Source of the DNA: Bacteroidales bacterium
Lineage (GTDB): Bacteria > Bacteroidota > Bacteroidia > Bacteroidales > WCHB1-69
Length of the DNA: 64,000 nt
Assembly: GCA_031553535.1 (NCBI GenBank)
Contig: JAVBLM010000001.1
Coordinates: 129,600-193,599 of the forward strand
Direction of reading: 5' to 3'
Shown here piece after piece: positions 3,427 to 50,575 of the stretch (the first letter of the stretch is position 1; every line of letters starts with the position of its first letter). The notes beneath the pieces were generated by a model, which worked only from the letters and a program-made list of their open reading frames with translations, ran no database searches and was not told the origin of the DNA. The translations under genes and the position numbers were made by a program.

Positions 3427-5298
3427 ATGCAAAAAGGAAGTATAAGTATGCAATCGGAAAATATGTTTCCGATAATTAAAAAATTTTTATATTCTGATAA
3501 TGAAATATTTCTTCGTGAACTGGTTTCTAATGCGGTAGACGCTACAAAGAAATTACAAACCTTGACATCCATGGGAAAAGCGCAAGGAGAATTGGGCGAT
3601 CTCACCATAGAAATAAAGGTTGATGAAAAAAACAAAAGCCTGGTCATTTCCGACCGTGGTATTGGAATGACAGGCGAAGAAGTAGACAAATACATTAATA
3701 ATGTAGCCTTTTCCGGTGCAAACGAGTTCCTGGAAAAATACGAAGGAGTTGATGCAAATTCGTTAATTGGGCATTTCGGATTAGGTTTCTATTCCGCATT
3801 TATGGTGGCCGATAAAGTGGAAATTGTAACTAAATCTTATCTCCCTGATACCACTGCTGTAAAATGGACTTGTAACGGAAGCACTGAATATATAATTGAA
3901 GATACCGTAAAAGAAGATCGTGGAACAGACATTATTCTTTATCTGGCAGAAGATTCCATGGAATTTTTGCAAGAGAATCGGATCTTGAATATCCTTACAA
4001 AATATTGCCGGTTTTTGCCTGTCCCTATCCGTTTCGGAAATGAAAAGAAGTGGGAAAAGGTAGAAGGACAAGATAAAGATGTGGAAGTAGAAATACCAAG
4101 GATTATCAATGACACAAATCCTATTTGGAAGCTTTCCCCATCCGAACTAAAGAAAGAAGATTATGAGAAGTTTTACAGGGAGCTTTATCCGCACTCTTTC
4201 GACCAACCGTTGTTTAACATTCATATCAATATAGATTATCCTTTTGACCTTACGGGAATATTATATTTTCCCAAGATTAAACAACAGGTCGATTTTCAGA
4301 AAAACAAGATCCAACTATATTGCAATCAAGTGTATATTACAGATCAGCTGGAAGGAATCGTTCCTGAATTCCTGATGTTACTACAGGGGGTTATCGATTC
4401 TCCGGACATTCCATTGAATGTAAGCAGAAGTTATTTACAAAGCGATAGCAATGTCAAGAAAATATCATCGCATATCACCAAAAAGGTAGCCGATAAACTG
4501 GAAGAAATGTTTTCCAAGGACAGAGAAGATTTTCAAACAAAATGGGACGATATCCGAATGTTCATGCAATATGGTGTATTAACAGACGAAAAATTTTACG
4601 AACGTGCAAAAAAATTCCTCCTATTTAAGAATATCGATGGAAAATATTTTACCATTGAGGAATACAAAAAGCAAATCGAATCGTTACAAAAAGACAAAGA
4701 TGATACGTTGGTTATATTATACGCCACAAATAATGAAGAACAATATACGCAGATAGAAGCCGCCAAAGGAAAAGGATATGATGTTCTGCTGATGGATGGA
4801 GCACTGGATATACACTTTATCAATTTGTTGGAACAAACGTTAGAAAAAATAAAATTCGTCCGGGTTGATTCCGATGTTACGGACAAATTGATTGAAAAGG
4901 GAGATAAACCTGTCTCAAAATTAACGGAAGAGCAGCAGAAAAAGCTCAACACCATTTTTGAAGAAGCCACAAATAAAAATAAGTTTACAATTGTCTTTGA
5001 AAATCTAAGCGATACCGATTTTCCTGTTAGTATTACACACCCCGAGTTTATTCGTCGCTGGGCAGATATGCAAAAAATGACAGGGAGTGCACCTATGTTC
5101 GGAATGGATATCCAAAAAAGTAATCTGGTTGTAAATACCAACCATCCTATTATGGAGAAAATCCTGGAGGAAAAAAGCAAGAAAAAAAGATCCGTATTGG
5201 TTTCCCAGTTGATAGATTTATCCCTGTTGTCTCAACAAATGCTTACCGGGGAATCTCTGGCAGCTTTTGTAAAACGCAGTCTGGAAATATTGAATTAA
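3427..5298 (+). CDS. htpG: Molecular chaperone HtpG (Hsp90)
   Basis: 623 aa with GHKL N-box FLRELVSNAVDA, GIGMT and GQFGLGFYS-like HFGLGFYSAF. Full-length Hsp90 architecture. Confidence 0.95.
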   Translation: MQKGSISMQSENMFPIIKKFLYSDNEIFLRELVSNAVDATKKLQTLTSMGKAQGELGDLTIEIKVDEKNKSLVISDRGIGMTGEEVDKYINNVAFSGANEFLEKYEGVDANSLIGHFGLGFYSAFMVADKVEIVTKSYLPDTTAVKWTCNGSTEYIIEDTVKEDRGTDIILYLAEDSMEFLQENRILNILTKYCRFLPVPIRFGNEKKWEKVEGQDKDVEVEIPRIINDTNPIWKLSPSELKKEDYEKFYRELYPHSFDQPLFNIHINIDYPFDLTGILYFPKIKQQVDFQKNKIQLYCNQVYITDQLEGIVPEFLMLLQGVIDSPDIPLNVSRSYLQSDSNVKKISSHITKKVADKLEEMFSKDREDFQTKWDDIRMFMQYGVLTDEKFYERAKKFLLFKNIDGKYFTIEEYKKQIESLQKDKDDTLVILYATNNEEQYTQIEAAKGKGYDVLLMDGALDIHFINLLEQTLEKIKFVRVDSDVTDKLIEKGDKPVSKLTEEQQKKLNTIFEEATNKNKFTIVFENLSDTDFPVSITHPEFIRRWADMQKMTGSAPMFGMDIQKSNLVVNTNHPIMEKILEEKSKKKRSVLVSQLIDLSLLSQQMLTGESLAAFVKRSLEILN

Positions 5299-10706: not shown

Positions 10707-11750
10707 ATGATGACCATCGAAGAAAGAATTTCTGCTTTCGAAAAACTTTCTATCCGTTTACAAGACACTTTAGAGGATAAACAAACCGGAAACCAAAAAT
10801 TAAAACAGCAAATAGAGCAAGAATATAATTACAATCCCTGGTTTATTCCCCTCTTCGTTCAGAAATCGATTGACGCTATTATTCAAATGCTGGATAAAGA
10901 AAAATTAACTCAATGGACTCTACCTTATCAAGGCATATCGAAAACATCGCAAAGATCGCTACGCATAGGAACTATTATGGCAGGGAACATTCCGCTTGTG
11001 GGATTTCATGATTTTTTGTCCGTACTTATAACCGGACATACATTCGTAGGGAAATTATCCTCGAATGATCCTCATTTATTACCTATCATTGCCGAAATAC
11101 TCTGCGAAATAGAACCTCGTTTTACAAATAAAATAGAATTCTGCTCCGGGAAACTTGGTAAAATAGACAGGCTTATTGCCACAGGCAGTAATAACTCGGC
11201 GCGTTATTTTGCTTATTATTTTCAAAAATATCCTTCTATTATTCGAAAGCATTGTAACAGCATTGCTATCCTAAATGGAAACGAATCCGAAGAGGAATTG
11301 AAGAAACTTGCCGATGATATTTTTTTATATTTCGGGCTCGGTTGCCGGAGTGTTTCCAAAATTTATATTCCTAAAGAATATGATTTTGAACCTTTATTCA
11401 TGGCTCTCGATCCCTATAAAAGCATTATGAACCAGCATAACAAATACCTGAACAACTTAGAGTATCAAAAAACAATCCATCTACTTAATTCTATCCCCTT
11501 TTTAGATCAAGGGATAACTATTTTTAAGGAAGATCCTGCTTTAGCATCTTCCATCAGTATTATCCATTATCAATATTATGACGATATGGATACTGTTTTA
11601 AAAGAAGTTTTATCTTTAGGCGATGAATTGCAATGTGCTGCAAGCAATATAATTCAAGATGGTTCCTTTGTCGCATTAGGGAAAACGCAATTTCCGGAAT
11701 TGGATGATTATGCCAATAGGATAAATACTTTATCTTTTTTGACTGAATGA
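10707..11750 (+). CDS. Acyl-CoA reductase (LuxC-like) family protein
   Basis: 347 aa. Overall resemblance to Bacteroidetes LuxC-like acyl-CoA reductases (GNIPLVGFHDFL, GLGCRSVSKIYIP). Assigned by recognition only. Confidence 0.55.
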   Translation: MMTIEERISAFEKLSIRLQDTLEDKQTGNQKLKQQIEQEYNYNPWFIPLFVQKSIDAIIQMLDKEKLTQWTLPYQGISKTSQRSLRIGTIMAGNIPLVGFHDFLSVLITGHTFVGKLSSNDPHLLPIIAEILCEIEPRFTNKIEFCSGKLGKIDRLIATGSNNSARYFAYYFQKYPSIIRKHCNSIAILNGNESEEELKKLADDIFLYFGLGCRSVSKIYIPKEYDFEPLFMALDPYKSIMNQHNKYLNNLEYQKTIHLLNSIPFLDQGITIFKEDPALASSISIIHYQYYDDMDTVLKEVLSLGDELQCAASNIIQDGSFVALGKTQFPELDDYANRINTLSFLTE

Positions 11751-11898
11751 TAGTGATAAAAGGAAAATTCCTTCGTTTTATTGAACTTACAAGTTCAGTT
11801 TTTATATATAAACAAGCCCTATCTGTTTTTACAGATAAAACATGCTTGAGATAATACAACTGAGGTATTTCACAATCTCTGCCGTACAAGAAAAATTC

Positions 11899-12245
11899 CC
11901 GAAAGACTCAAATGCTTTTTCAGGAAGTCTTGGAAGGTATCCGAAAGGGTTAATGTATTTGTTTTGGAAGCCTCGGAAGATATCCCAAAGACTCAGACAC
12001 TTTTTTAAGCGGTTTCCGGAATACCCGAAAGCTTCAAACCATTTGGTTTATGGGTTTCGGGAATTCCGAAAGGATTAAACCATTCGGTTTGGAGGTTTCG
12101 GGAATATCCGAAAGGCTCAAACCATTCGGTTTGGAGGTTTCGGAACTTCCGAAAGGTTCAAACCATTCGGTTTGGAGGTTTCGGGAACACCCGAAAGAGG
12201 CAAACCATTTGGTTTGGAGGTCTCGGAAACATCCGAAAGTGTCTT
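11899..12245. repeat. Tandem array, about 9 units of 41-43 bp, two short hairpins per unit
   Basis: CCGAAAG recurs at 11899, 11941, (11984), 12025, 12066, 12108, 12149, 12191 and 12233. Core unit: ccgaaaggctcaaaccattcggtttggaggtttcgggaatat. Hairpins are TTTCGG-n6-CCGAAA and AAACC-attc-GGTTT. Confidence 0.9.
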
Positions 12246-12353
12246 ATACTTTTATATCCGACCTTATTTAACATGAGCCAGGGGGTCAGAATTTAGTTTG
12301 TTTAAATAAAATCGAAATGATTTATATGATTTAATAACAGAATTTACAGGAAG

Positions 12354-12680
12354 TTATAACTCATGAACATCTTCGTATAGTTTCTTACAATAACTATATA
12401 ATAACTTGCTTACTTCCTCCGGTTTTTCTATTAAAAACAAGTATTGCTCATTGCTGAGATATTTTAAATCTTTTGACAGAATAAGATAATATTTGCATTC
12501 TTCGAGGCTTCCCTGGGAAATAGTAGAAAATCGAAGCTTTTCTGCTTTTCCTTTTCGTCGATATTCCTCTGCAATGTTAGCTGGTATTGAAACAGCGGAT
12601 CTTCTTAGTGGGGAAACAAGCCCGAATAATTCTTCTTTAGGATAATTTTCTATTATCTTGTAAGATTCGAGTTCAAAATT
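12354..12680 (-). pseudogene. 5'-truncated four-helix-bundle (23S rRNA intervening-sequence protein family) gene remnant
   Basis: The minus-strand frame reads KKSHNFELESYKIIENYPKEELFGLVSPLRRSAVSIPANIAEEYRRKGKAEKLRFSTISQGSLEECKYYLILSKDL...HEL*. It is bounded upstream by TAG and contains no Met, so it is absent from the ORF track. Confidence 0.55.
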
Positions 12681-12741
12681 ATGTGATTTCTTCTACCTAT
12701 ATAATCAAATCAATAAAAGAATTTGTTTTCTCCATCCCCTG

Positions 12742-12787
12742 TAACTTTATTTAACTTCTGAAACTTCTGTAACTTCTGTAACTTCTA
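12742..12787. repeat. 9-bp microsatellite (A/T)AACTTCTG x4-5
   Basis: taactttat ttaacttctg aaacttctg taacttctg taacttcta. Confidence 0.7.
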
Positions 12788-13075
12788 TTAAATAGTTTTT
12801 ATCCTGTTAAAATAAACGACTCCTATTCTCATCTTTATCAAACATTAAAATAATCAATTACAATAAATAAATCCCTCCGGATAATAATTCTTCATGAAAC
12901 GATTAAACATTAGAAAGTCAATATTTGTTATAGGGGAGTAATTTATTCTTATATACATATTTCAAAATAAATAAGAAAAATATATAAGAAAAAATCATTA
13001 TGGAATGGTTTTTGAAACTCAAGATACAATAACTGATAAATAATAAAATAATAGTTTAACTTTAAAAAAATAGAT

Positions 13076-13588
13076 ATGGGAAAAGAAGCCGTAGAAATTG
13101 CAGGTGTAGACGTAAAAAAACTTTTAGAAATGCTAAATGGTGCACTATCGGAAGAATGGTTAGCATATTATCAATATTGGGTAGGGGCACGTTTAATGGA
13201 GGGTCCAATGAGAAGTGAAATTGAACCGGAATTACTCGTACATGCGAATGAAGAACTTAACCATGCGGTTTTAGTAGTTAACAGAATCATCCAATTGAAC
13301 GGGACACCGGTAATAAATCCAAATGAATGGACGAAATTAGCTCGTTGTAAATATGAAGCGCCATCGGATCCTTATGTGGAAGTTATTCTGGAACAAAACT
13401 TAAGGGGAGAAAGATGTGCTATCAAGCGTTATGAAGAAATCGCAAATTATACCGTAGGAAAAGATCATGCAACATATCAAATGGCTGTAACTATTCTTGA
13501 AGATGAATTGGAACACGAACATGATATCGAAGATTGGATCAGAGACTTAGCCAGAATGAAAGAAGACTGGAAAAAAATCAGAATGTAA
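13076..13588 (+). CDS. DPS-like (DPSL) ferritin-superfamily protein
   Basis: 170 aa with ferritin-like di-iron ligand pattern (EE...EELNH...EDELEHEHD) and two Cys (CKYE..., ERCAIKRYEE), as in DPSL/thioferritin proteins. Confidence 0.8.
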   Translation: MGKEAVEIAGVDVKKLLEMLNGALSEEWLAYYQYWVGARLMEGPMRSEIEPELLVHANEELNHAVLVVNRIIQLNGTPVINPNEWTKLARCKYEAPSDPYVEVILEQNLRGERCAIKRYEEIANYTVGKDHATYQMAVTILEDELEHEHDIEDWIRDLARMKEDWKKIRM

Positions 13589-30151: not shown

Positions 30152-30213
30152 CGATAAAATCTTTTTCATAATTCAAATTATGGCTACCTCCCCGGTAGCC
30201 TTTTTTATTTTTT
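30150..30213 (+). terminator. Conserved stop-proximal module plus intrinsic terminator (copy 1 of 3)
   Basis: aacgataaaatctttttcataattcaaattatGGCTACCtccccGGTAGCCttttttatttttt. Stem at 30182-30188 / 30194-30200. Near-identical modules are at 40290-40355 and 50090-50151. Confidence 0.8.
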
Positions 30214-30375
30214 CCCATAGGCATCCCTACTGTTCATCCATAGTTATCCCTACGTATTACCCGTAAGGATAACTACGGTTCATCCGTAGGCATACCTACT
30301 GACAATACGTAGGAGTAACTACTTTTCATCCATAAGATAGCTACCGGTAATATAAAGGCATACCCTAAGTATAAA
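30214..30375. repeat. Tandem array of 46-bp units (two 23-bp hairpin half-units each), about 3.5 copies
   Basis: TTCATCC recurs at 30233, 30279 and 30325. Half-units carry short stems such as GTAGG-cata-CCTAC, CGTA-aggataac-TACG and GTAG-gagtaa-CTAC. Confidence 0.65.
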
Positions 30376-40046: not shown

Positions 40047-40301
40047 GGTGTATGACTATATCGTACTTTTGCGTACGAAAGTATCGTTCCACTGCGTACG
40101 TATGTATTGTCCACCTGCATATGCTTGTATCATACTATTTCTTCAATAAACGGACAAATATTATACAATAAATCCATGGAAAGCGAGTTAGGTATACACT
40201 CAATAGACATGAATGTGTCTCATTTAGCTGCCGGGATTTATTTCTACTCCATGGAATTCAACGGACAGAAGATCACCAAGCGAATGAGCATTAAACGATA
40301 A
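40047..40301 (+). pseudogene. Remnant of a T9SS cargo gene: C-terminal sorting domain fragment only
   Basis: ...LYHTISSINGQILYNKSMESELGIHSIDMNVSHLAAGIYFYSMEFNGQKITKRMSIKR* parallels the last ~55 aa of the 2772-aa protein (HVHSISGKLLY...AAGIYIYSMEFNGQRIVKRMSIKR*). There is no body of the gene upstream. Confidence 0.75.
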
Positions 40302-40325
40302 AATCTTTTTCATAATTCAAATTGT

Positions 40326-40355
40326 GGCTGCCTCCCCGGCAGCCTTTTTTATTTT
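40326..40355 (+). terminator. Intrinsic terminator (module copy 2 of 3)
   Basis: GGCTGCC-tcccc-GGCAGCC followed by ttttttatttt. Confidence 0.8.
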
Positions 40356-40449: not shown

Positions 40450-40541
40450 CTTAGGCTCGGAAGCTATTTCCGCTTAGGCAAAGAAGATGCTTCCGCTTAG
40501 GCTCGAAAGGTATGTTCGCTTAGGCTATGATGATACTTTAG
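40450..40541. repeat. Tandem array of four 23-bp hairpin units
   Basis: CTTAGGC recurs at 40450, 40473, 40496 and 40519. Stems are CGGAA/TTCCG, GAAG/CTTC and CGAA/TTCG. A further 2-unit 23-bp repeat (tatcgtacttttgcgtacgaaag / tatcgttccactgcgtacgtatg) is at 40061-40106. Confidence 0.7.
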
Positions 40542-40921: not shown

Positions 40922-41780
40922 ATGGAAAAGGTTTTTATTTTTAAAAAAGGTTTTATTATTGTTGACTATACTCCATTCGTCAAGCGAAAGGTTTTTCTTT
41001 ACTAGAATTTAGTCCTTGCTATTCAAGGGCTAAAAAAGTTACTCTTATTCCTATTCCTTAATAATCTTAAAGAATTATTTTCTTTAAACTATTTACAGGT
41101 TTAGCTATAGTGTTACAAGTATTGCTTATTTGTATACTTAAATTCTATCAGAATAAGGAGGAAGCTGAAAATCCTAATTTACAACAGAGTAAGCATAATA
41201 AATAAAAATAAAACAAGATGAAGAAGGTTTTTATTATTATCGACGATACCTATTTCGTCAGGCGAAAGATTTTTCTTTACTAGAATTTAGTCCTTGCTAT
41301 TCAAGGGCTAAAAAAGTTACTCTTATTCCTATTCCTTAATAATCTTAAAGAATTATTTTCTTTAAACTATTTATAGGTTTAGCTATAGTGTTACAAGTAT
41401 TGCTTATTTGTATACTTAAATTCTATCAGAATAAGGAAGAAGCTGAAAATCCTAATTTACAACAGAGTAAGCATAATAAATAAAAATAAAATAAGCCATG
41501 ATGAAGAAGGTTTTTATTATTATCGACGATTCCCATTTCGTCAAGCGAAAGGTTTTTCTCTACTAGGTTTTAGCCCTTTATATCTAAAGGCTAAAGAAGT
41601 TACTCTTATTCCTATTCCTTAATAGTCTTAAAGAATTACTTTCTTTAAACTATTTACAGGTTTAGTTATATCACTACAGGTATTATCTATTTGTATACCT
41701 AAATTGTATCAGAATAAGGAGGAAGCTGAAAATCCTAATTTATAACAGAGTAAGCATAATAAATAAAAATAAAATAAGCC
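40922..41780 (+). repeat. Three head-to-tail copies (296, 280/283, 283 bp) of the giant gene's upstream region plus its first ~20 coding nt
   Basis: ATG(ATG)AAGAAGGTTTTTATT occurs at 41218, 41498 and 41781, and in diverged form (ATGGAAAAGGTTTTTATT) at 40922. The intervening sequence is collinear in all copies. Confidence 0.9.
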
Positions 41781-44700
41781 ATGATGAAGAAGGTTTTTAT
41801 TTTTGTGTTAGGAATATTATTTCTTAACTTAACAGGACATTCCCAATCGGGAGTTCGAAAATGGATAGAGGATTTCGACGGAAGTACAGTTTCGTATGCC
41901 CAGAATCCTCAAGGCTCATGGGTGTTTAACACCGATTATTATCTTCCCAGCTTGAGCGGGTCGAGTGTATCAAAGTCTTATTTGGGATTTGTTCCCAGCA
42001 GAGAGGGAGATACAATTATTTTACAAACCGCCAGTGCATATGATTTGAGTAATTACGACTATGTTCAGTTACGCTTCAGTCACATTTGCAAGGTTTCCCC
42101 CATGGATATTGCAAAGATACAATACCGTATAGCCGGACAACGGTTTTGGGAAGACATCGATCCTGCTGACTATAAAGGAGGCGCTTCTAATTACACAAAA
42201 GCAAGAGGGTTTAATGCTGCAAGTTATCCCGAATGGCAAGCCAGAGACAGTACGGTTATTCCAATGCAATCGTGGTGGAAAGAAGAATTTTTCGACCTGA
42301 CTGTCAACATAAAGAAAATGAGTGGAGTGGAAATCCGTTTTTTGATTATACACGGGGATGTCCCACACACGCAGGCTTCTTTTGGCTGGCTACTGGAAAA
42401 CATCCAGTTAACGGCATCTACCCATGAATTAAGCCCTCCTATCGTAAAGTTCATCCCGCCATCGGTAAAAAATACCGTATATACTACCGGCCCTCATGAA
42501 ATAAATGCGAAGGTAAAAACCACTACCAACGCTCCTATCAAACATCCCTGGCTGAAATATACGGCAACCGAACCCGGTAAACCCGCCGTAACAGATTCCA
42601 TATCAATGACAAAGATAGCAGGAGATAGCTTGTGGAAAGCTACCATACCGCAATATATAGCAGGTACGAAAGTTGAATATTCTATTACAGGAAGAGACAC
42701 TATAGGAAATGAGGCAATCGATATGTCTGGATATGTGATAGTAAGGCCATCGGGAGGAGATAAAACAGGTTATGTCATAGTAGGTACCGGAACAACAACC
42801 ACCTCAACTTATTATTTTCCGGTAGGCCAATATTATGGTACCAGTTGGTCACGACAGATATATTTAGCCTCCGAACTAAATTCTACCTCTGCAGGAGGAA
42901 TAATTACAGAGTTCGCATGGGATTACGCCTCAAGCGGCACATTTAGTAAAACGAATCAATACTGCTATTTTCAAGTGGTAGATGATGTTGCAACTGTTTC
43001 AGGATATACAGATCCTGTTGCCAATGGAGCTACTTTAGTATGGTCGGGCACTTTTTCTGCCTCCGGCGGGCGTACATGGATAAATCTACAATTAGACCAG
43101 CCATTTTATTTACCCCCCGGAAAAAATTTGATGGTGTATTGGATAAATAATAATGGCACATCATATACTTCAACAACCTTATTTAATGGAACCTCCACCT
43201 CGCCAACAAACAGAACAATCTATGCAGGTGCTTTTAGTACAGTTTTTCCATCTACAAGTACCGGAACTCTCACGACAAACAGGCCCAATGCACGTTTTTA
43301 TATTATAGGGACTCCCCCTCTTAATTACTCCGCAGGAACTTTTTCTATAGATATGTCCGATACAATAATAGTATCTCCCGGACTAAGTGTTCCTATTGTG
43401 GCAACAATAAAAAACAAAGGGAAATCGAATCTGGATTCGGTGACGGTATCGTATTCTATCAATAATGCTGCTCACGTATCGAAAAAACTATATTTTAATC
43501 CGGGCTTGCCGTGGGATCACAATTACCAGGATACCCTGGGATATTATGTTCCCGGAGCAGCGATAAACAATGCTATTACCGTATGGATTTCATCTCCCAA
43601 TGGCGTACATGATTCCACTACCTGGGATGATACCTTAACAAAAAATGTATATGGAAGCAGTGATCTACTGGTAGCATTTGTTAGCCCGCCGGCTAATACC
43701 GTATATACCACCGGTCCATATGGGATAAAAGCTTCTATAAAGAGTATTACCGGAGCTGCACTCCCTGTCACTATTTCCTTACATGTAGATTATACCTATC
43801 AGGGAGTAACCACCAGTGATGTATTGCCCATGCTGTTGGATGCATCGGATAATTTATGGAAAGCCACCATACCCCAAAAACGCTTTAACAATCATGTTGA
43901 ATATTCAATTAGCCTGATAGATATAGTGGGTAATACTGTCGTCTTATCAAATAGCTATGATATCAAACGTTTGTGCGAAGGAACATCTAAGGGCTGCGAT
44001 ACCAATTCGGTGGGATTGGTTTCTATCGATTCACCGGAAAAAACAGGAGTACTCGCAGGCTATGATAAACCGGTACGGGTAACGTTGAAAAACAAGGGAG
44101 TGGCAGACTTGGATTCCTGTTATCTCAATTGGAGCCTCAACGGAGTACAACAACCGGGCACAGCTGTCTATAGAGGGCCATTGCCGGATGATTTTACCGA
44201 TACGATTACCGTAGGGTCGTACATGCCTGTAGCGAATCAAAGGGATACGATAAAGGTATGGGTAAGCATGCCCAACGGGAAGGTAGATCCTGTTAAAACG
44301 GATGATACATTGACGGTATCTCCATTGGGATGCGGAACTATTTTATCGGGTTATCACCAGATAGGGGAAGGCAGAACGTATACAAAATTGACCGATGTGT
44401 TAAATATAATACGTAATTGCGGAGTAAGCGGAAATCTTATTTTGCAGTTGAAAGGAGAACATCCGGGTGCGGATTTGAATGGCATATCGAATTATCTGCA
44501 AGGATATACTCTAACAATTACCTCGTATGATAATGATCCGGATAGTGCTAGAATAAAGGTTACCAGCGGAGCCGGCATTACACTCAATAACAGCAACAAT
44601 ATTGTAATAAAAAGCATTACTGTCGATGCAACCAAAGCATCGTATGCGATTCAGTTTACGGGAACATGCACCAATGTGGTCATACGCGATTGCAAGTTAT

Positions 44701-47700
44701 TAACCGATACTGCTTCTACAGCAACTACAGTAGCTCCTATCTATAAAGCATCTGCTACAGGAGTAGTAGACAGTATATTTATTATCCATAATCTTTTAGA
44801 TGGGGGATACGATGGGTTTAGTTTCTATGGAGCTCCGTCAACTTCCGTTTATGGGACCAATGTAATATTTGACAGTAATATAGTTCGCAATCAATCTCAT
44901 TACGCTTGCGCTCCGCAACATGTTGATTTTATAAGTTACTCTCATAACACCATATTGAGCAGAACTGCAAATATAGCCACAGCATGGCATGGCTTACGGG
45001 CAGTTTATTGCAATGGTCCTATTATTGGCAACCGCATACACCAACGCAATACAGGTATTACAAGTCCCGATGGAATACTAATACAATACTATAATCAATA
45101 TCCGGCTTCCAAGCTTCATCAAAGGACATTGGTTGCGAATAATGAAGTCATTACATCTCCAACCGGTGGTATTTCCGCACTACATTTCACTTCGGCAAAA
45201 GCCGAATGTATAAATAATTCTCTACATGTATCCGGAAGCGGCAATGCATATGGAATTTATATTGTCAATTCAACAATGAATGATCTGGCCATTAAAAACA
45301 ATAACATTGTCATGACAAGTGCTACCGCTCGTCCAATAGAGTTTAGCGGTACAGGCAATCTGCAATTATATGATATTGACTATAACAATTTATATGCCCC
45401 TACAAATATAGGGTTTTATGGGGTACTTATTACCTCAATGCAGACCTGGCAGCAAACAATACCCACCGATCGTCATTCAAAAAACATTATGCCTGTTTTT
45501 GTAGATCCGTCAATGAAAACAAGTCTGGAAATAGTTAAAGATTTACGCTTTTTATGCAATGTAATACCACCTGTTATAACGGATATACGTGGTAATATAA
45601 GGGCTGTTACTACAACTATGGGATGTTATGATGTGGGTTCTTACCAAGCAAATGCCACACTTTGGGAAATTACAGGGCTAACCGACGGACATACCCCGGG
45701 ACAAACAGAAGATGTTAATGTGGTTGTATTTAATACCGGAGAAGACGACATAACATCTATCAACCTGGAATGGTCGGTGAATGGAACATCAAAAGGAAGT
45801 GCAAATCATCCGGTATCATTATCCAGAGGCGACTCTACAACAATTATGGTAGGACAACTCACCTACCCGTCGGCAAATGTAACGGTAAAAGTGTGGATCA
45901 ACAATTTGAATAATGATCCCCAATTGGACGAATATGCCGGGGATGATACAGTGAGCCGGTTTGTTAATGTTTGTAACGGAGGAGGCTATAGCGGAGTGGT
46001 AAAAGTAGGCAAGAGTGTGGGAGCTTTCCCCTCTTTTGAAGCGGCTTATCAAGCATTGACCTTATGTGGTGTATTAAGCAATATAACGATTGAAATTGAG
46101 CCGGGTACATATCCGGATAACCTGAGCATATCGAATAATGCAACCGCATTTGGGACTCATAAGCTGACAGTTACTTCTTCCACTTCCAATGCAAGTGATG
46201 TAATCGTTAATTCTACCATACGCATTGAGAATGCAACCAATGTTACCTTTAAAAACATAACGGTAGACGTAGATTCTGTAAGTAATGCCTGTGGGATTGT
46301 ATTTGCAGGAACCTGTTCTAATATTGAAATAAACGCATGTACTATTCTGGCTGATCCGACAACAACTTCTTCTACTGTCCATGGAATATGGTATAATAAT
46401 ACAAATGGTTCTGGAAATCAAATTTCAAATATATCCATTATTAATAATACGATAGATGGAGGATATTGTAATGTTTATTTTAATTATTTAGGTGGGGCTG
46501 TTGGGCAAGGTTTGAATAATATAATAGATAATAATATTTTCTTGCGAGCCTGTAGCAGCGTATATATTATTCAATACGGACATGTGAGAAGTGTATCCAA
46601 TAATACCATTATTACTCGAAATACAAGCACTCAACAATATGGCATACATTTCAGGACGAATACCTGTGTGGATACGATTGCAAATAATAAAATCTTAATG
46701 CAGGGAACAGGCACATGTTACGCATTAGATTTGTATGAACAAATAAATAGTACAACCAATGGGGCTACCCATCCGGTATTGCTTGTCAATAATGAAATAC
46801 GTCATCTTGCATTGTCAGGAGGAACTTATGGAATACTTATGTACCAAACACGGGCAGATATCTTGCATAATTCTGTTTATTTCAAAGGGACATCAAGTGC
46901 TTATGCTATGTATATAAATAATACAAGAACAACCGATTACCTCAACATTAAGAATAACATCTTTTCAGTGGAAACTTCTGGAGCGGGATATCCACTTTAT
47001 GTAAACACAGCTACACATGTTACACAAGCCTTTAATACATTTATGGATTATAATGATTATCACAATACAGGTGCTAATTTTGCTTATTTAGGAGGAACTA
47101 CTATCACAACATTACCTGCTTTGCAGACGGCAACAGGCCAGGATGCCAACTCGGTAAGTGTAAAACCATTGTATATAGATACCGCTGTAAGCCTGGAATG
47201 TTCCTCGTATGATGATAAGATGGAGTGTCCTTTGCCTAACGGTGTTACGACCGACATAGAGGGAACTACCCGCCTGTTAATCACCACAATGGGGGCATAC
47301 ACCGATCAACCGGTAGGATTGGATTTAAGGGCTCAGGCAATTACACCCTGGAATACAAAAGTAGTAAAGGATCAGGTAGTTCAGGTAAATTTAAATGTAG
47401 CCAGCGGCGGGACAACACCTGTCTCTTCTGCCACCTTCGGCTGGAGTTTGAATGGACAAACCCAACAAACCGGTATTCCATGGAATCCTGCCCAGCCATT
47501 GGGATTAGCACAACAAGCCAATGTTACCATAGGCAGTTTCACCGTTACCAATACTACCAATACATACAATATAGTAGTGTGGATAGAGCGTGCCAACGGG
47601 CAACAGGATATGAAACAGAAGAATGATACGGTAAGAACATCCGCTACACTTGTTCCTTTGGCAGAGTGGGTAAAACCATTTAATGGGGATACAATATCCA

Positions 47701-50099: not shown

Positions 50100-50122
50100 A
50101 ATCTATACATAATTCAAATCAT

Positions 50123-50151
50123 GGCTGCCTCCCCGGCAGCCTTTTTTATTT
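50123..50151 (+). terminator. Intrinsic terminator (module copy 3 of 3)
   Basis: GGCTGCC-tcccc-GGCAGCC followed by ttttttattt. Confidence 0.8.
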
Positions 50152-50154
50152 CAC

Positions 50155-50460
50155 AGGTTTCCTTGTTATTCGAAGGCATAGCTCCATGTTGTTTTAAAGA
50201 AGTCCATAGGCACTACAAGGTTGGGAAAGGGATATTCATTCTTGTTTAAAGATGTCCCAAGGCTGGGAAAGGGATTTTCATCTTTGTTTGGAGGTGTCCC
50301 AGAATTGGGAAAAGGATTTTCACTCTTATTTGAAGGTGTCCCAAAGTTGGGAAAGGGGTTTTCATCCTTGTTTAGAGATGTCCCAGAATTGGGAAAAGGA
50401 TTTTCACCCTTATTTGAAGGTGTCCCAGGGTTGGGAAAGGTTCATGCAGCTATTACAAGG
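50155..50460. repeat. Tandem array, about 7 units of exactly 42 bp, two hairpins per unit
   Basis: TGGGAAA recurs at 50222, 50264, 50306, 50348, 50390 and 50432, with one or two degenerate units to the left. Unit: tgggaaagggattttcatctttgtttggaggtgtcccagaat. Hairpin TCCCA-gaat-TGGGA. Confidence 0.9.
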
Positions 50461-50575
50461 GAAAATAATACAATATATCTTTAACCTCCTATCAAAAAGA
50501 AATATATTCCGGTCATTATAGGACTATCTTTGCATCAACTTTTGATAATTTTATTACAAGTATTTAATATTTGTT

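What the first reader, a model, noticed from the sequence alone, without database searches (positions are those of the whole stretch)
11899..12245. 42-bp tandem array with two hairpins per unit, sopC-like architecture in a housekeeping context
Seen: about nine contiguous units of 41-43 bp, with no unique spacers. The central units are nearly identical and the flanking ones decay. Each unit contains the inverted repeat TTTCGG-n6-CCGAAA, a second small one AAACC-attc-GGTTT, and the linear motifs GAAAGG and GTTTGGAGGT. 42 bp is four helical turns, so all sites lie on one DNA face. Established: F-plasmid sopC consists of tandem 43-bp units that each carry a short inverted repeat bound by SopB. Iteron and centromere-like arrays share this design. 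Inference: this could be an array of phased binding sites for a DNA-binding protein (nucleoprotein scaffold, insulator or decoy). It could also be a structured RNA if transcribed. Two or three reading frames stay open through the array, which argues against coding.
Basis: partly seen in the sequence, partly recalled or inferred. Interest (0 to 1): 0.65.

Follow-up and report, generated by a model that had tools for sequence, protein, structure and literature searches.

The report
Hairpin minisatellite family in Bacteroidota
The array is a real, non-coding tandem repeat of about 42 bp, and it belongs to a repeat family scattered through Bacteroidota genomes in which each unit carries a fixed 9-base motif next to a small hairpin; it behaves like a copy-number-variable, MITE/REP-like repeat, not like a plasmid-style partition site.

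Summary
Window 11899-12245 has nine GAAAG anchors spaced 41-43 bp apart. Five to six units (12011-12245) are well conserved and three on the left are decayed. The array is intergenic and non-coding.

It is not unique. A second 42-bp array lies at 50216-50440. Collection scans found about 25 more arrays in Flavobacterium, Chitinophagaceae and Bacteroidales DNA.

The family unit is GTTTGRAGG, then a 7-bp hairpin (TTTC-NNN / NNN-GAAA), then a 12-13 nt variable linker. The three inner hairpin pairs covary (92.5% of cells paired against 80.2% in shuffles). The motif and stems vary less than the loop and linker inside arrays. A1's second hairpin and its strong overall fold are A1-specific.

Units occur only in head-to-tail arrays. 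Copy number differs between samples at the same locus. One composite array sits at two unrelated loci. In one genome an array is bracketed by 47-nt inverted repeats.

No copy was found on plasmids, phages or viral contigs. The period is 41 bp in most members, so exact helical phasing is not conserved.

Best reading: a hairpin minisatellite of the MITE/REP-like kind, closest to P. gingivalis MITEPgRS and BrickBuilt. The sopC-like reading is not supported. A role as RNA or as a protein-binding scaffold is not excluded.

The parts
11899..12010 (+). Three decayed units at the 5' (left) side of array A1, with GAAAG/CAAAG anchors at 11901, 11943 and 11986.
   Evidence: Anchor spacing is 42 and 43 bp. 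The covariance model R1 does not hit these units. The sequence is identical in the independent Logan contig L009.
12011..12245 (+). Well-conserved part of array A1. Motif starts are at 12046 (weak), 12087, 12129, 12170 and 12212. H1 hairpins are at 12013-12030, 12055-12071, 12096-12113, 12138-12154, 12179-12196 and 12221-12238. The array begins and ends with a hairpin.
   Evidence: TRF gives period 42, 5.5 copies, 85% matches. R1 hits score 36-39 bits with E about 1e-7, plus 16.8 bits at 12046. Units are shown stacked.
50216..50440 (+). Sister array A2 of the same family. It has five units of exactly 42 bp (motif starts 50244, 50286, 50328, 50370, 50412), hairpin TCCCA-n4/5-TGGGA, and decayed units on its left (about 50160-50243).
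   Evidence: TRF gives period 42, 5.4 copies. R1 hits score 33.7-41.2 bits. The Logan contig L097 starts inside the array, at about window 50378.
11816..11841 (-). Terminator-like palindrome between the LuxC-like gene and A1. The T-run is on the minus strand.
   Evidence: It is the only terminator-like site found in 11500-13200.
12346..12681 (-). Four-helix-bundle gene of the 23S_rRNA_IVP / bAvd-like family with no canonical start codon. It reads towards A1, so A1 would lie in its 3' UTR in antisense orientation if it is transcribed.
   Evidence: Translation is. Pfam PF05635 matches at 1.1e-30 over profile positions 7-105 of 106. A Bacteroidetes-type -7 box TAATTTTG lies at 12681 on the minus strand.
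10707..11750 (+). Upstream neighbour of A1: a LuxC-like acyl-CoA reductase.
   Evidence: Pfam PF05893. Orthologues at 66-76% identity in related Bacteroidales contigs have other downstream genes (L008, L010), and R1 finds no unit in L008 or L010.
13076..13588 (+). Downstream neighbour of A1: a ferritin/Dps-like protein, 830 bp from the array.
   Evidence: Pfam PF00210 at 1.5e-25.
50108..50151 (+). Intrinsic-terminator module of the 2772-aa ORF, immediately upstream of A2. The module is itself repeated in the window.
   Evidence: BLAST finds copies at 30167-30210 (93%) and 40311-40354 (95%). The hairpin GGCTGCCTCCCCGGCAGCC followed by T6 is visible.

Best explanation
A1 is a non-coding hairpin minisatellite. 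It is one of at least two arrays in this window that belong to a Bacteroidota-wide repeat family.

Shown:
- The 41-43 bp unit is a fixed single-strand motif GTTTGRAGG, then a 7-bp hairpin, then a 12-13 nt linker that differs between arrays.
- The four outer hairpin pairs, TTTC/GAAA, are nearly fixed. The three inner pairs covary. The loop is 3-6 nt.
- Units exist only in head-to-tail arrays that start and end with a hairpin.
- Arrays sit in intergenic DNA next to unrelated housekeeping genes.
- Copy number differs between samples at the same locus.
- A whole composite array occurs at two unrelated loci, and in each copy every unit carries that copy's own hairpin core.
- In one GC-rich Bacteroidales contig the array lies between 47-nt terminal inverted repeats.

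Inferred:
- An array grows from one founder unit by slipped-strand or unequal-exchange events.
- Arrays are occasionally copied to new sites as part of a MITE-like element.
- The motif-plus-hairpin module is kept because it must form as a hairpin in single-stranded nucleic acid (DNA during replication or transposition, or RNA). There it is recognised by whatever enzyme or binding protein propagates or uses it.

It is not a partition site, an iteron set, a CRISPR array or a gene.
For: Family membership:
- A two-unit pattern found 7 stretches in genome representatives, including arrays in Flavobacterium aureirubrum, Flavobacterium sp., a Chitinophagaceae MAG and a Tannerella MAG.
- A scan that required only three periodic GTTTGRAGGT motifs found 69 stretches. 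About 25 of them also carry TTTC-stem-loop-stem-GAAAG, which the scan did not ask for.

Hairpin:
- On 22 seed units 89.6% of cells pair, against 77.2% in shuffles. Covariation is 0.293 against 0.108 (0 of 500 shuffles reach it). Slid registers give 72.7% or less.
- On 95 covariance-model hits (60 distinct) 92.5% pair, against 80.2%. One inner pair is CG 39 / GC 18 and another is GC 33 / CG 21.
- At least six different stem cores occur, all complementary.
- Non-Watson-Crick cells on the + strand are G.T 25 against A.C 5.

Constraint inside arrays: pairwise difference per site is 0.246 in the loop, 0.115 in the linker, 0.039 in the motif and 0.006-0.034 in the stems.

Arrays only: R1 run without filters on the 64-kb window hits only A1 and A2.

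Copy-number variation: the same locus has 4, 5 and 4 model hits in L020, L048 and L073, and 3 against 2 in L034 and L039.

Duplication to a new site: L046 and L062 share the composite array, have unrelated flanks, and differ by a uniform core swap, CTTCAAG against TAGCTTA.

Terminal inverted repeats: 47 nt at 87% complementarity bracket the L034 array.

Non-coding: Pfam finds nothing in the array ORFs. The 41-bp period in most members and the 41/42/43 mix in A1 break any frame.

Published analogues in the same order: MITEPgRS has tandem Repeat C, up to 14 copies, inside ISPg1-type TIRs (PMC2575886); PMC4596501 gives the internal tandem repeat of this element (464/PgRS) as 41 nt. BrickBuilt has 23-nt tandem repeats without spacers, is always intergenic, and occurs 19 times per genome (PMC4596501).
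Against: - No transposase, TIR or target-site duplication was found around A1 or A2. The only flanking inverted repeat is 17 nt at 82%, no better than a second, probably chance, pair in the same region.
- A purely selfish repeat does not obviously explain why GTTTGRAGG and TTTC/GAAA stay nearly invariant across three orders, with GC content from 0.34 to 0.61, while everything else changes. Nor does it explain why the motif and stems are conserved within arrays. Both hint at a cellular function.
- The within-array motif value is biased low, because units were found by anchoring on the motif.
- The G.T excess rests on non-independent units.
- Homology with MITEPgRS Repeat C could not be tested because its sequence is not held. 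The exact two-unit pattern listed no Porphyromonas record among the genome representatives; whether P. gingivalis is in that collection was not checked.
- Hairpin covariation could also arise mutationally, by template switching in quasi-palindromes, without selection.
Confidence: 0.55

Rival explanations
1. The array is a multivalent structured RNA, either a protein sponge or scaffold, or a UTR element. It is transcribed, and each unit presents GUUUGRAGG next to a hairpin as a binding site for an RNA-binding protein. Alternatively the hairpins stabilise or insulate neighbouring mRNAs, as REP/BIME elements do.
For: - The hairpin covaries.
- G.U-compatible cells outnumber A.C cells 25 to 5 on the + strand.
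- The motif and stems are conserved relative to the linker inside arrays.
- A1 folds with z = -7.4 on the + strand and -9.8 on the minus strand.
- A1 lies between a minus-strand gene and the only terminator-like site on that strand.
- In 6 of 9 loci the array points the same way as the downstream gene.
Against: - No expression data are available.
- No Rfam family matches.
- A2 does not fold better than shuffles (z = -0.1 and -1.7).
- A2 sits between a strong terminator and the next gene's -7 box.
- No Bacteroidetes-type promoter box lies upstream of A1 on the + strand.
- The transcript implied by A1's context would be the C-rich antisense strand, which conflicts with the G.T bias.
- Neighbouring genes have nothing in common.
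Confidence: 0.2
2. This is the first reader's model: an array of phased double-strand binding sites for a DNA-binding protein. It would act as a sopC-like centromere, a nucleoprotein scaffold, an insulator or a decoy.
For: - The layout matches sopC: tandem units of 41-43 bp, each with a short inverted repeat and no spacers.
- The outer half-sites TTTC-N9/10-GAAA and the adjacent GTTTGRAGG are nearly invariant across the family.
- Many arrays lie in divergent promoter regions.
Against: - No par/sop or rep gene is adjacent.
- The arrays are absent from the plasmid and phage collections.
- Several arrays occur per genome. In this window two arrays 38 kb apart have different inner repeats.
- The inner stem changes sequence while keeping complementarity, which a sequence-reading dimer does not require.
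- Most members have a 41-bp period, so sites would rotate by about 34 degrees per unit.
Confidence: 0.12
3. The array is a CRISPR-related relic or decoy. Its units derive from, or mimic, type VI-B (Cas13b) direct repeats, which are also confined to Bacteroidota. On this view the array is a CRISPR-like array with 4-6 nt 'spacers' (the hairpin loops).
For: - The A2 unit GTTGGGAAAG...TTTGAAGGT shares GTTGGGAAAG and TTTGAAGG with the F. columnare repeat GTTGGGAAAGCCCTTATTTTGAAGGGTATCTACAAC (PMC5395568, Table 4).
- TTTGRAGG(G)T recurs in two of the three published repeats checked here, F. columnare and F. branchiophilum (PMC5395568); the Prevotella sp. Cas13b repeat has TTTTGAGGGG instead (10.1101/2023.03.10.532141).
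- Summed local-alignment scores exceed shuffled repeats at p = 0.01-0.06.
Against: - A type II repeat used as a control scores p = 0.03 in the same test.
- The GTTG...CAAC ends that characterise these repeats are not conserved in the family.
- There are no unique spacers and no cas gene in the window or the fetched loci.
- No Rfam CRISPR-DR family matches.
Confidence: 0.02
4. The array encodes a 14-residue repeat protein, or is a pseudogene of one.
For: - Plus-strand frames lack stop codons over long stretches (ORFs 11842-12078 and 12050-12271; 167-172 aa ORFs across the Flavobacterium array).
- One frame gives ...LEV....ER... in several arrays.
Against: - Unit lengths of 41, 42 and 43 bp shift the frame inside A1.
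- Most family members have a 41-bp period.
- The conserved residues keep identical codons across orders while the variable part covaries as a hairpin.
- Pfam finds no match.
- All three + frames are open at once, which is an effect of base composition.
Confidence: 0.01

Closest known systems
MITEPgRS (MITE464) of Porphyromonas gingivalis, with its tandem 'Repeat C' (PMC2575886; PMC4596501)
   Same: It occurs in the same bacterial order. It has an internal head-to-tail array of 41-nt units with variable copy number (up to 14). It is intergenic, with about 20 copies per genome. The array is flanked by other repeats and terminal inverted repeats, as seen here for the GC-rich Bacteroidales locus L034.
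   Different: No ISPg1-type TIR (GAGACCATTGCA) and no Repeat A/B modules were found around A1 or A2. The Repeat C sequence is not in the held text, so homology is untested. The exact two-unit pattern listed no Porphyromonas record among the genome representatives; whether P. gingivalis is in that collection was not checked.
BrickBuilt MITE/minisatellite of P. gingivalis (PMC4596501)
   Same: It has spacer-less tandem repeats, is always intergenic, occurs at many loci, varies in copy number, and has decaying or partial copies. The window also holds 23-bp hairpin arrays at 30261-30344 and 40450-40526. Some BrickBuilt 3' TIRs read CCGAAAGGTCTC, close to CCGAAAGGCTC in the A1 unit.
   Different: Its unit is 23 nt. 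[quoted passage not shown] It was reported only in P. gingivalis and P. gulae, whereas this family spans three orders. The TIR resemblance is 9 of 12 bases and may be chance.
BOX elements (tandem boxB) of Streptococcus pneumoniae and REP/BIME arrays of enterobacteria (REP background: PMC3733652; BOX from my own knowledge)
   Same: These are short intergenic repeats built around a hairpin with a conserved tag next to it. They can form arrays, their function is debated (mRNA stability, termination, protein binding), and they are thought to be mobilised in trans.
   Different: REPs carry GTAG or CGTC tags, occur mostly as singles or inverted dimers, and are linked to RAYT transposases. Here no solitary unit exists in 64 kb, all units are head-to-tail, and the tag is GTTTGRAGG. 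A1 and A2 do not share boxA/boxC-like flanking modules.
F-plasmid sopC and iteron arrays
   Same: Tandem units of about 43 bp, each carrying a short inverted repeat, without spacers.
   Different: This array is chromosomal, occurs in multiple copies, has variable inverted-repeat cores, has no adjacent partition or replication genes, and is absent from 72,556 plasmid records.

Membership tests
sopC-type partition site (centromere-like array) | Tandem units of about 43 bp, each with a short inverted repeat | tested here: met
   Unit spacing is 41-43 bp. TTTCGG-n5/6-CCGAAA is present in six units.
sopC-type partition site (centromere-like array) | Adjacent parA/parB (sopA/sopB) operon, on a plasmid or one site per replicon | tested here: not met
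   The neighbours are a LuxC-like reductase, a four-helix-bundle gene, ferritin/Dps, peroxiredoxin and a TPR protein. Two arrays lie within 38 kb. blastn finds no plasmid match.
sopC-type partition site (centromere-like array) | Inverted repeat of fixed sequence read by the cognate ParB/SopB | tested here: not met
   The inner stem differs between A1 (CGG/CCG) and A2 (CCA/TGG). It covaries across the family.
Iterons | 17-22 bp direct repeats next to a rep gene or origin | tested here: not met
   The period is 41-43 bp and no rep gene is nearby.
CRISPR array, including type VI-B | Repeats separated by unique spacers of about 30 nt | tested here: not met
   Units are contiguous. The 12-13 nt linker is nearly identical within an array.
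CRISPR array, including type VI-B | Repeat of the family's type (GTTG...CAAC ends for VI-B) and cas genes nearby | tested here: not met
   The ends are not conserved. Alignment to published repeats is barely above shuffles and no better than a control repeat. No Rfam CRISPR-DR hit. No cas gene was seen among the neighbouring ORFs examined.
REP/BIME | Imperfect palindrome of 20-40 nt with a GTAG or CGTC tag | tested here: not met
   The palindrome is 17-18 nt and the tag is GTTTGRAGG.
REP/BIME | Dispersed single or inverted copies, with an associated RAYT transposase | tested here: not met
   The covariance model without filters finds no solitary or inverted unit in 64 kb. A RAYT could not be sought genome-wide.
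MITEPgRS / BrickBuilt-type MITE with internal minisatellite | Internal head-to-tail array of variable copy number, intergenic, at several loci per genome | tested here: met
   There are two arrays in this window. Copy number differs at shared loci. All family arrays examined lie between predicted ORFs (crude ORF calls, unreliable in the GC-rich loci).
MITEPgRS / BrickBuilt-type MITE with internal minisatellite | Terminal inverted repeats matching an IS element, plus leader/tail or Repeat A/B modules | tested here: inconclusive
   47-nt inverted repeats bracket the array in L034. Nothing convincing was found around A1 or A2. No IS element is available for comparison.
MITEPgRS / BrickBuilt-type MITE with internal minisatellite | Sequence homology of the unit to Repeat C or to the 23-nt BrickBuilt unit | not testable with these tools
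Repeat-protein gene | Continuous reading frame with period divisible by 3, and homologous proteins | tested here: not met
   The 41/42/43 bp units break the frame. Most members have a 41-bp period. Pfam finds nothing.
Described RNA family (Rfam 15) | Match at or near a family's gathering score | tested here: not met
   There is no hit on either array. The best hit is an unrelated miRNA model at 26.5 bits against a threshold of 93.

The most novel reading that the evidence does not exclude
The invariant 29-nt module (single-stranded GTTTGRAGG followed by the TTTC...GAAA hairpin) is the recognition site of a dedicated Bacteroidota protein that binds RNA or single-stranded DNA. The arrays would then be multivalent scaffolds or sponges for that protein, analogous to CsrB/RsmZ for CsrA, in a phylum that lacks Hfq, ProQ and CsrA. 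Copy number would set the titration capacity.
Probability: 0.1. Interest if true: 0.75.

Novelty: new member of a known kind. Interest (0 to 1): 0.4.

Why it matters
Intergenic hairpin repeats of Bacteroidota have been described only case by case, as MITEPgRS and BrickBuilt in Porphyromonas. This work defines a repeat family by an explicit module: a motif plus a covarying hairpin. The module is recognisable from Flavobacterium to termite-gut Bacteroidales.

The definition is practically useful. These arrays break short-read assemblies, as both arrays do here. They generate spurious ORFs and are the kind of repeat that can be reported as a 'questionable CRISPR'. They could also serve as VNTR markers.

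The conservation of the module across orders and inside arrays is more than a neutral satellite predicts. The family is therefore a concrete place to look for a Bacteroidota-specific protein that recognises a hairpin with an adjacent tag, whether a transposase, a nuclease or an RNA binder. One member sits in a culturable strain, Flavobacterium aureirubrum J3, where this can be tested.

Tried and rejected
- **Rfam.** Gathering thresholds on the whole window and E-value thresholds on both arrays gave nothing relevant.
- **Cas13b direct-repeat similarity.** I followed this through the literature and a shuffle test. It is weak and matched by a control repeat, so I dropped it.
- **Pairing of GGAGG and GAAAGG with the 16S anti-Shine-Dalgarno tail.** I rejected this by reasoning alone. 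Any purine-only motif pairs with that all-pyrimidine tail, so the coincidence carries little weight.
- **Second hairpin as a family feature.** The folding energy of linker plus motif is no better than shuffles (p = 0.39).
- **A pyrimidine-tract / RAGG mini-hairpin around GTTTG.** The pairing register differs between arrays, so I did not pursue it.
- **TIRs or target duplications around A1.** I found only a 17-nt, 82% inverted pair.
- **Shared flanks between A1 and A2.** There are none, apart from a terminator module upstream of A2 only.
- **Array at the orthologous locus in relatives.** Synteny downstream of the LuxC-like gene is not kept, and the model finds no unit there.
- **tRNA adjacency.** None.
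- **Literature search by sequence.** Searching for the unit returned no relevant paper.
- **MITEPgRS Repeat C sequence.** The W83 genome paper is not held and the ATCC 33277 paper has no text supplements.
- **Alignment register.** The first pair count, on an ungapped MAFFT alignment, was blurred by 17-nt against 18-nt hairpins. I redid it on equal-length seeds and on a model-based alignment.
- **Exact-protein look-up of the Dps-like neighbour.** Not on record.
Full report
**1. The observation**

GAAAG-type anchors lie at 11901, 11943, 11986, 12027, 12068, 12110, 12151, 12193 and 12235. That makes nine contiguous units of 41-43 bp with no unique spacers. Tandem Repeats Finder scores 12011-12239 as period 42, 5.5 copies, 85% matches.

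The pattern GTTTGRAGGT-N13-GAAAGG, with up to two mismatches, occurs 7 times in the window against 0.05 expected from shuffles. Decay is one-sided. The three left units (11899-12010) are degenerate, and the array stops abruptly on the right, just after a hairpin.

The array is intergenic. It lies between a LuxC-like reductase (10707-11750, +) and a ferritin/Dps-like gene (13076-13588, +). Short + strand ORFs cross it (11842-12078 and 12050-12271), but the mix of 41, 42 and 43 bp units shifts the frame, and Pfam finds nothing in them.

An independent short-read assembly of the same organism (Logan, SRR23967709) carries the left flank and the decayed units identically. It breaks at 12015, where the near-identical units begin.

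**2. It is not alone**

A second array of exactly 42-bp units lies at 50216-50440. It sits just after the terminator of a 2772-aa ORF and 130 bp before a TPR gene. Its unit shares GTTTGRAGGT and GAAAGG with A1, at the same spacing, but the inverted repeat between them differs: TCCCA/TGGGA instead of TTTCGG/CCGAAA. The Logan assembly also breaks inside this array.

A two-unit pattern scanned over one genome per GTDB species gave 7 stretches. They include arrays of 41-42 bp units in:
- Flavobacterium aureirubrum (42 bp, 9.9 copies);
- another Flavobacterium;
- a Chitinophagaceae MAG;
- a Tannerella MAG;
- a low-GC contig binned as Desulfovibrionaceae, which is probably mis-binned.

A metagenome scan that required only three GTTTGRAGGT motifs at 41-43 bp spacing gave 69 stretches. 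About 25 of them also have TTTC-stem-loop-stem-GAAAG directly after the motif, although the scan did not require it. Host GC content ranges from 0.34 to 0.61. The remaining hits, and all 16 viral-contig hits, are unrelated repeats.

The window itself comes from an uncultured Bacteroidales bacterium. The closest homologues of the flanking protein are from Bacteroidales MAGs and termite-gut metagenome contigs.

**3. Anatomy of the family unit**

The unit has four parts, in order:
- the motif GTTTGRAGG;
- an 18-nt (sometimes 17-nt) hairpin, here called H1. Its four outer pairs are T-A, T-A, T-A and C-G. Its three inner pairs change between arrays but stay complementary. At least six cores occur: CGG/CCG, CCA/TGG, CGA/TCG, GCA/TGC, GCT/AGC and GTA/TAC;
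- a G;
- a 12-13 nt linker that differs between arrays.

On 22 equal-length units, 89.6% of cells pair against 77.2% in shuffles. The covariation score is 0.293 against 0.108, and 0 of 500 shuffles reach it. Every slid register is worse, at 72.7% or less.

I built a covariance model from these units (R1). It recovers 95 units in the fetched DNA, including arrays that were not in the seed. On that alignment 92.5% of cells pair against 80.2% in shuffles. One inner pair is CG 39 / GC 18 and another is GC 33 / CG 21. That alignment is fitted to the structure and leans towards it. The ungapped seed alignment gives the same answer.

Non-standard cells in the stem are G.T 25 against A.C 5 on the motif strand. 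This suggests the motif strand is the one that folds, but the units counted are not independent.

- **The second inverted repeat (AAACC-attc-GGTTT).** Over 15 array types, the folding energy of linker plus motif is no better than with a shuffled linker (p = 0.39). Only A1 and one other array stand out, at p = 0.03 each.
- **The strong overall fold.** A1 folds with z = -7.4 on the + strand and -9.8 on the minus strand. A2 does not (z = -0.1 and -1.7).

**4. How the arrays behave**

- **Arrays only.** R1 run without filters over the 64-kb window hits only A1 and A2. It finds no solitary or inverted copies.
- **Boundaries.** Arrays begin and end with an H1 hairpin.
- **Neighbours.** The arrays lie between predicted ORFs, and the flanking genes share no function. 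By my reading of the translations (only the window's own neighbours were checked against Pfam) they include YchF-, rhomboid-, RarA- and GtrA-like proteins, a histidine kinase, a glycosyltransferase, and LolA-, S4- and TPM-domain-like proteins. Gene calls in the GC-rich loci are crude.
- **Copy-number variation.** The same locus sampled in different metagenomes has different copy numbers: 4, 5 and 4 model hits in L020, L048 and L073, and 3 against 2 in L034 and L039.
- **Duplication to a new site.** Two contigs of one termite-gut metagenome (L046, L062) have unrelated flanks but carry the same composite array. It consists of a diverged sub-array, then GTTTGGAGG units, then the same tail, GTTTACCCTTTT. 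The units are identical except for the hairpin core, which is CTTCAAG in every unit of one array and TAGCTTA in every unit of the other. So a whole array was copied to a new place, and each array was homogenised or re-expanded from one unit.
- **Inverted repeats.** In a GC-rich Bacteroidales contig the array is bracketed by 47-nt inverted repeats at 87% complementarity. Around A1 I found only a 17-nt, 82% inverted pair, which is not convincing. A1 and A2 share no flanking module.
- **Constraint inside arrays.** Pairwise difference per site is 0.246 in the loop, 0.115 in the linker, 0.039 in the motif and 0.006-0.034 in the stems. The motif value is biased low because units were located by the motif. 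The stem values are not.
- **Not at the orthologous site.** Orthologues of the LuxC-like gene in related contigs have other downstream genes and no unit.
- **No tRNA association.** No tRNA gene is adjacent to any array.

**5. Transcription context in the window**

A minus-strand gene of the 23S_rRNA_IVP / bAvd-like four-helix-bundle family lies at about 12346-12681. Pfam matches it at 1.1e-30, and it has no canonical start codon. It reads towards A1. A Bacteroidetes-type -7 box lies at 12681 on that strand. The only terminator-like site in the region, 11841-11816, is also on the minus strand, just beyond the array. If transcribed, A1 would therefore be a 3' UTR in the C-rich orientation.

No -7 box precedes A1 on the + strand. 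A2 lies between an intrinsic terminator (about 50124-50150) and the -7 box of the next gene at 50525.

Over the family, the array points the same way as the downstream gene in 6 of 9 loci and the same way as the upstream gene in 3 of 10. These numbers are too small to decide, and the gene calls behind them are partly crude. I have no expression data.

**6. Interpretation**

What is shown fits a hairpin minisatellite of the MITE/REP-like kind. It is non-coding, occurs only in arrays, varies in copy number, is occasionally copied to new loci, and is sometimes bounded by inverted repeats.

The hairpin is real at the single-strand level. Which molecule forms it (DNA during replication or transposition, or RNA) is inferred, not shown. 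The near-invariance of GTTTGRAGG and of the outer stem across three orders, and their conservation inside arrays, suggest that the module is recognised by a protein. Whether that protein is a mobilising enzyme or a cellular binder is unknown.

Covariation alone does not prove selection. Template switching in quasi-palindromes can create complementary changes mutationally; that is established knowledge, not tested here.

The rival readings fare as follows:
- **sopC-like.** It matches only the layout. There are no par genes and no plasmid or phage copies. Several arrays occur per genome with different cores. Most members have a 41-bp period, so the sites would not stay on one face of the helix.
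- **CRISPR or Cas13b link.** This is a weak resemblance. Alignment p values are 0.01-0.06, and a control repeat gives 0.03.
- **Coding.** It is excluded by the 41-bp period and the frame shifts.

**7. Comparison with what is known**

The closest published systems are in the same order:
- **MITEPgRS of P. gingivalis.** It has TIRs like those of ISPg1, Repeats A and B just inside them, and Repeat C in tandem up to 14 times (PMC2575886). PMC4596501 gives the internal tandem repeat of this element (464/PgRS) as 41 nt.
- **BrickBuilt.** It has 23-nt tandem repeats without spacers, leader and tail segments, and IS5-type TIRs. It has 19 copies per genome, is always intergenic, and contains promoter activity (PMC4596501).

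I could not test sequence homology, because the consensus sequences appear only in figures and no P. gingivalis DNA was reachable. The exact two-unit pattern listed no Porphyromonas record among the genome representatives; I did not check whether P. gingivalis is in that collection. So any relationship would be distant.

BOX elements (tandem boxB) and REP/BIME arrays resemble this family in design but differ in tag, arrangement and dispersal (PMC3733652 for REPs; BOX from my own knowledge).

I file this as a new member of a known kind. The new content is the explicit, phylum-wide module.

**8. Verdict**

- Interest is moderate (0.4). The most novel reading still open is a multivalent scaffold or sponge for a Bacteroidota-specific protein that recognises a hairpin with an adjacent tag. 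I put its probability at about 0.1.

Noticed in passing
window 40947-41801: A 283-bp tandem repeat of 3.0 copies at 91% identity ends at the start of the 2772-aa ORF (41781-50099). It contains two matches above the gathering score to the Rfam motif DUF805b, at 41155-41195 and 41716-41756. The 'cis-regulatory' motif is therefore part of a repeated unit here. In P. gingivalis, two BrickBuilt copies flank DUF805 genes (PMC4596501, Table 1).
   Followed up: no
window 30167-30210, 40311-40354, 50108-50151: A terminator module of about 44-55 bp (CGATAAAATC...GGCTGCCTCCCCGGCAGCC followed by a T run) occurs three times at 93-95% identity: after ftsZ, after a gene fragment, and after the 2772-aa ORF. 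Each copy is followed within about 60-100 bp by a tandem hairpin repeat: 23-bp units at 30261-30344 and 40450-40526, and the 42-bp array A2.
   Followed up: partly
window 40200-40354: This stretch duplicates the 3' end of a T9SS-type C-terminal sorting domain (...YSMEFNGQKITKRMSIKR*) together with its terminator. It matches the end of the 2772-aa ORF at 50040-50151 and looks like a gene-end fragment left by recombination.
   Followed up: no
window 40450-40526 and 11944-12004: The 23-bp units (CTTAGGCTCGGAAGCTATTTCCG) resemble the decayed left units of A1 (GCCTCGGAAGATATCCCAAAGAC). This suggests that the 23-bp and 42-bp arrays of this genome are related, in parallel with the 23-nt and 41-nt arrays of P. 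gingivalis.
   Followed up: no
window 12346-12681 (minus strand): A four-helix-bundle gene of the 23S_rRNA_IVP / bAvd-like family (Pfam 1.1e-30) is nearly full length but has no ATG, GTG or TTG start. It is either a pseudogene or uses an unusual start. The ORF listing does not list it for that reason.
   Followed up: partly
window 12739-12786: A 9-bp tandem repeat, CTGTAACTT, of 5.2 copies lies in the 1.3-kb intergenic region between the array and the Dps-like gene.
   Followed up: no
window 52465 to beyond 64000: No ORF of 100 aa or more is listed on the + strand after 52286, because a giant gene runs off the end of the window. In the Logan contig L097 the next called gene after the TPR gene encodes 3887 residues. 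Together with the 2772-aa ORF this makes two giant genes in a row; the 2772-aa ORF ends in a T9SS-type C-terminal sorting sequence.
   Followed up: partly
L046 7184-7566 and L062 272-752: Both loci carry a composite array: a sub-array of diverged units (GCATGGGAAAATTGCAGCCTGCGAAAATCCATTACACGGCT) directly followed by canonical GTTTGGAGG units. The composite sits at two unrelated loci of one termite-gut metagenome, and each copy has its own uniform hairpin core.
   Followed up: yes
L034 3185-3231 / 3457-3503; also flanks in L020, L023, L069: In the GC-rich Bacteroidales contigs the arrays sit in nests of other short repeats (GTACCnGGCAAACTTCGCC followed by a GC-rich hairpin) in inverted orientation. 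In L034 these form 47-nt terminal inverted repeats around the array.
   Followed up: partly
L004 3413-3852 (Flavobacterium aureirubrum J3): A 10-unit array lies between divergent rhomboid-like and RarA-like genes. Its higher-order periods of 125 and 167 bp are caused by a variant unit (GCAATTTGCAGGGAGG). All three + frames are open for 90-170 codons, so it is likely to be annotated as hypothetical proteins.
   Followed up: partly
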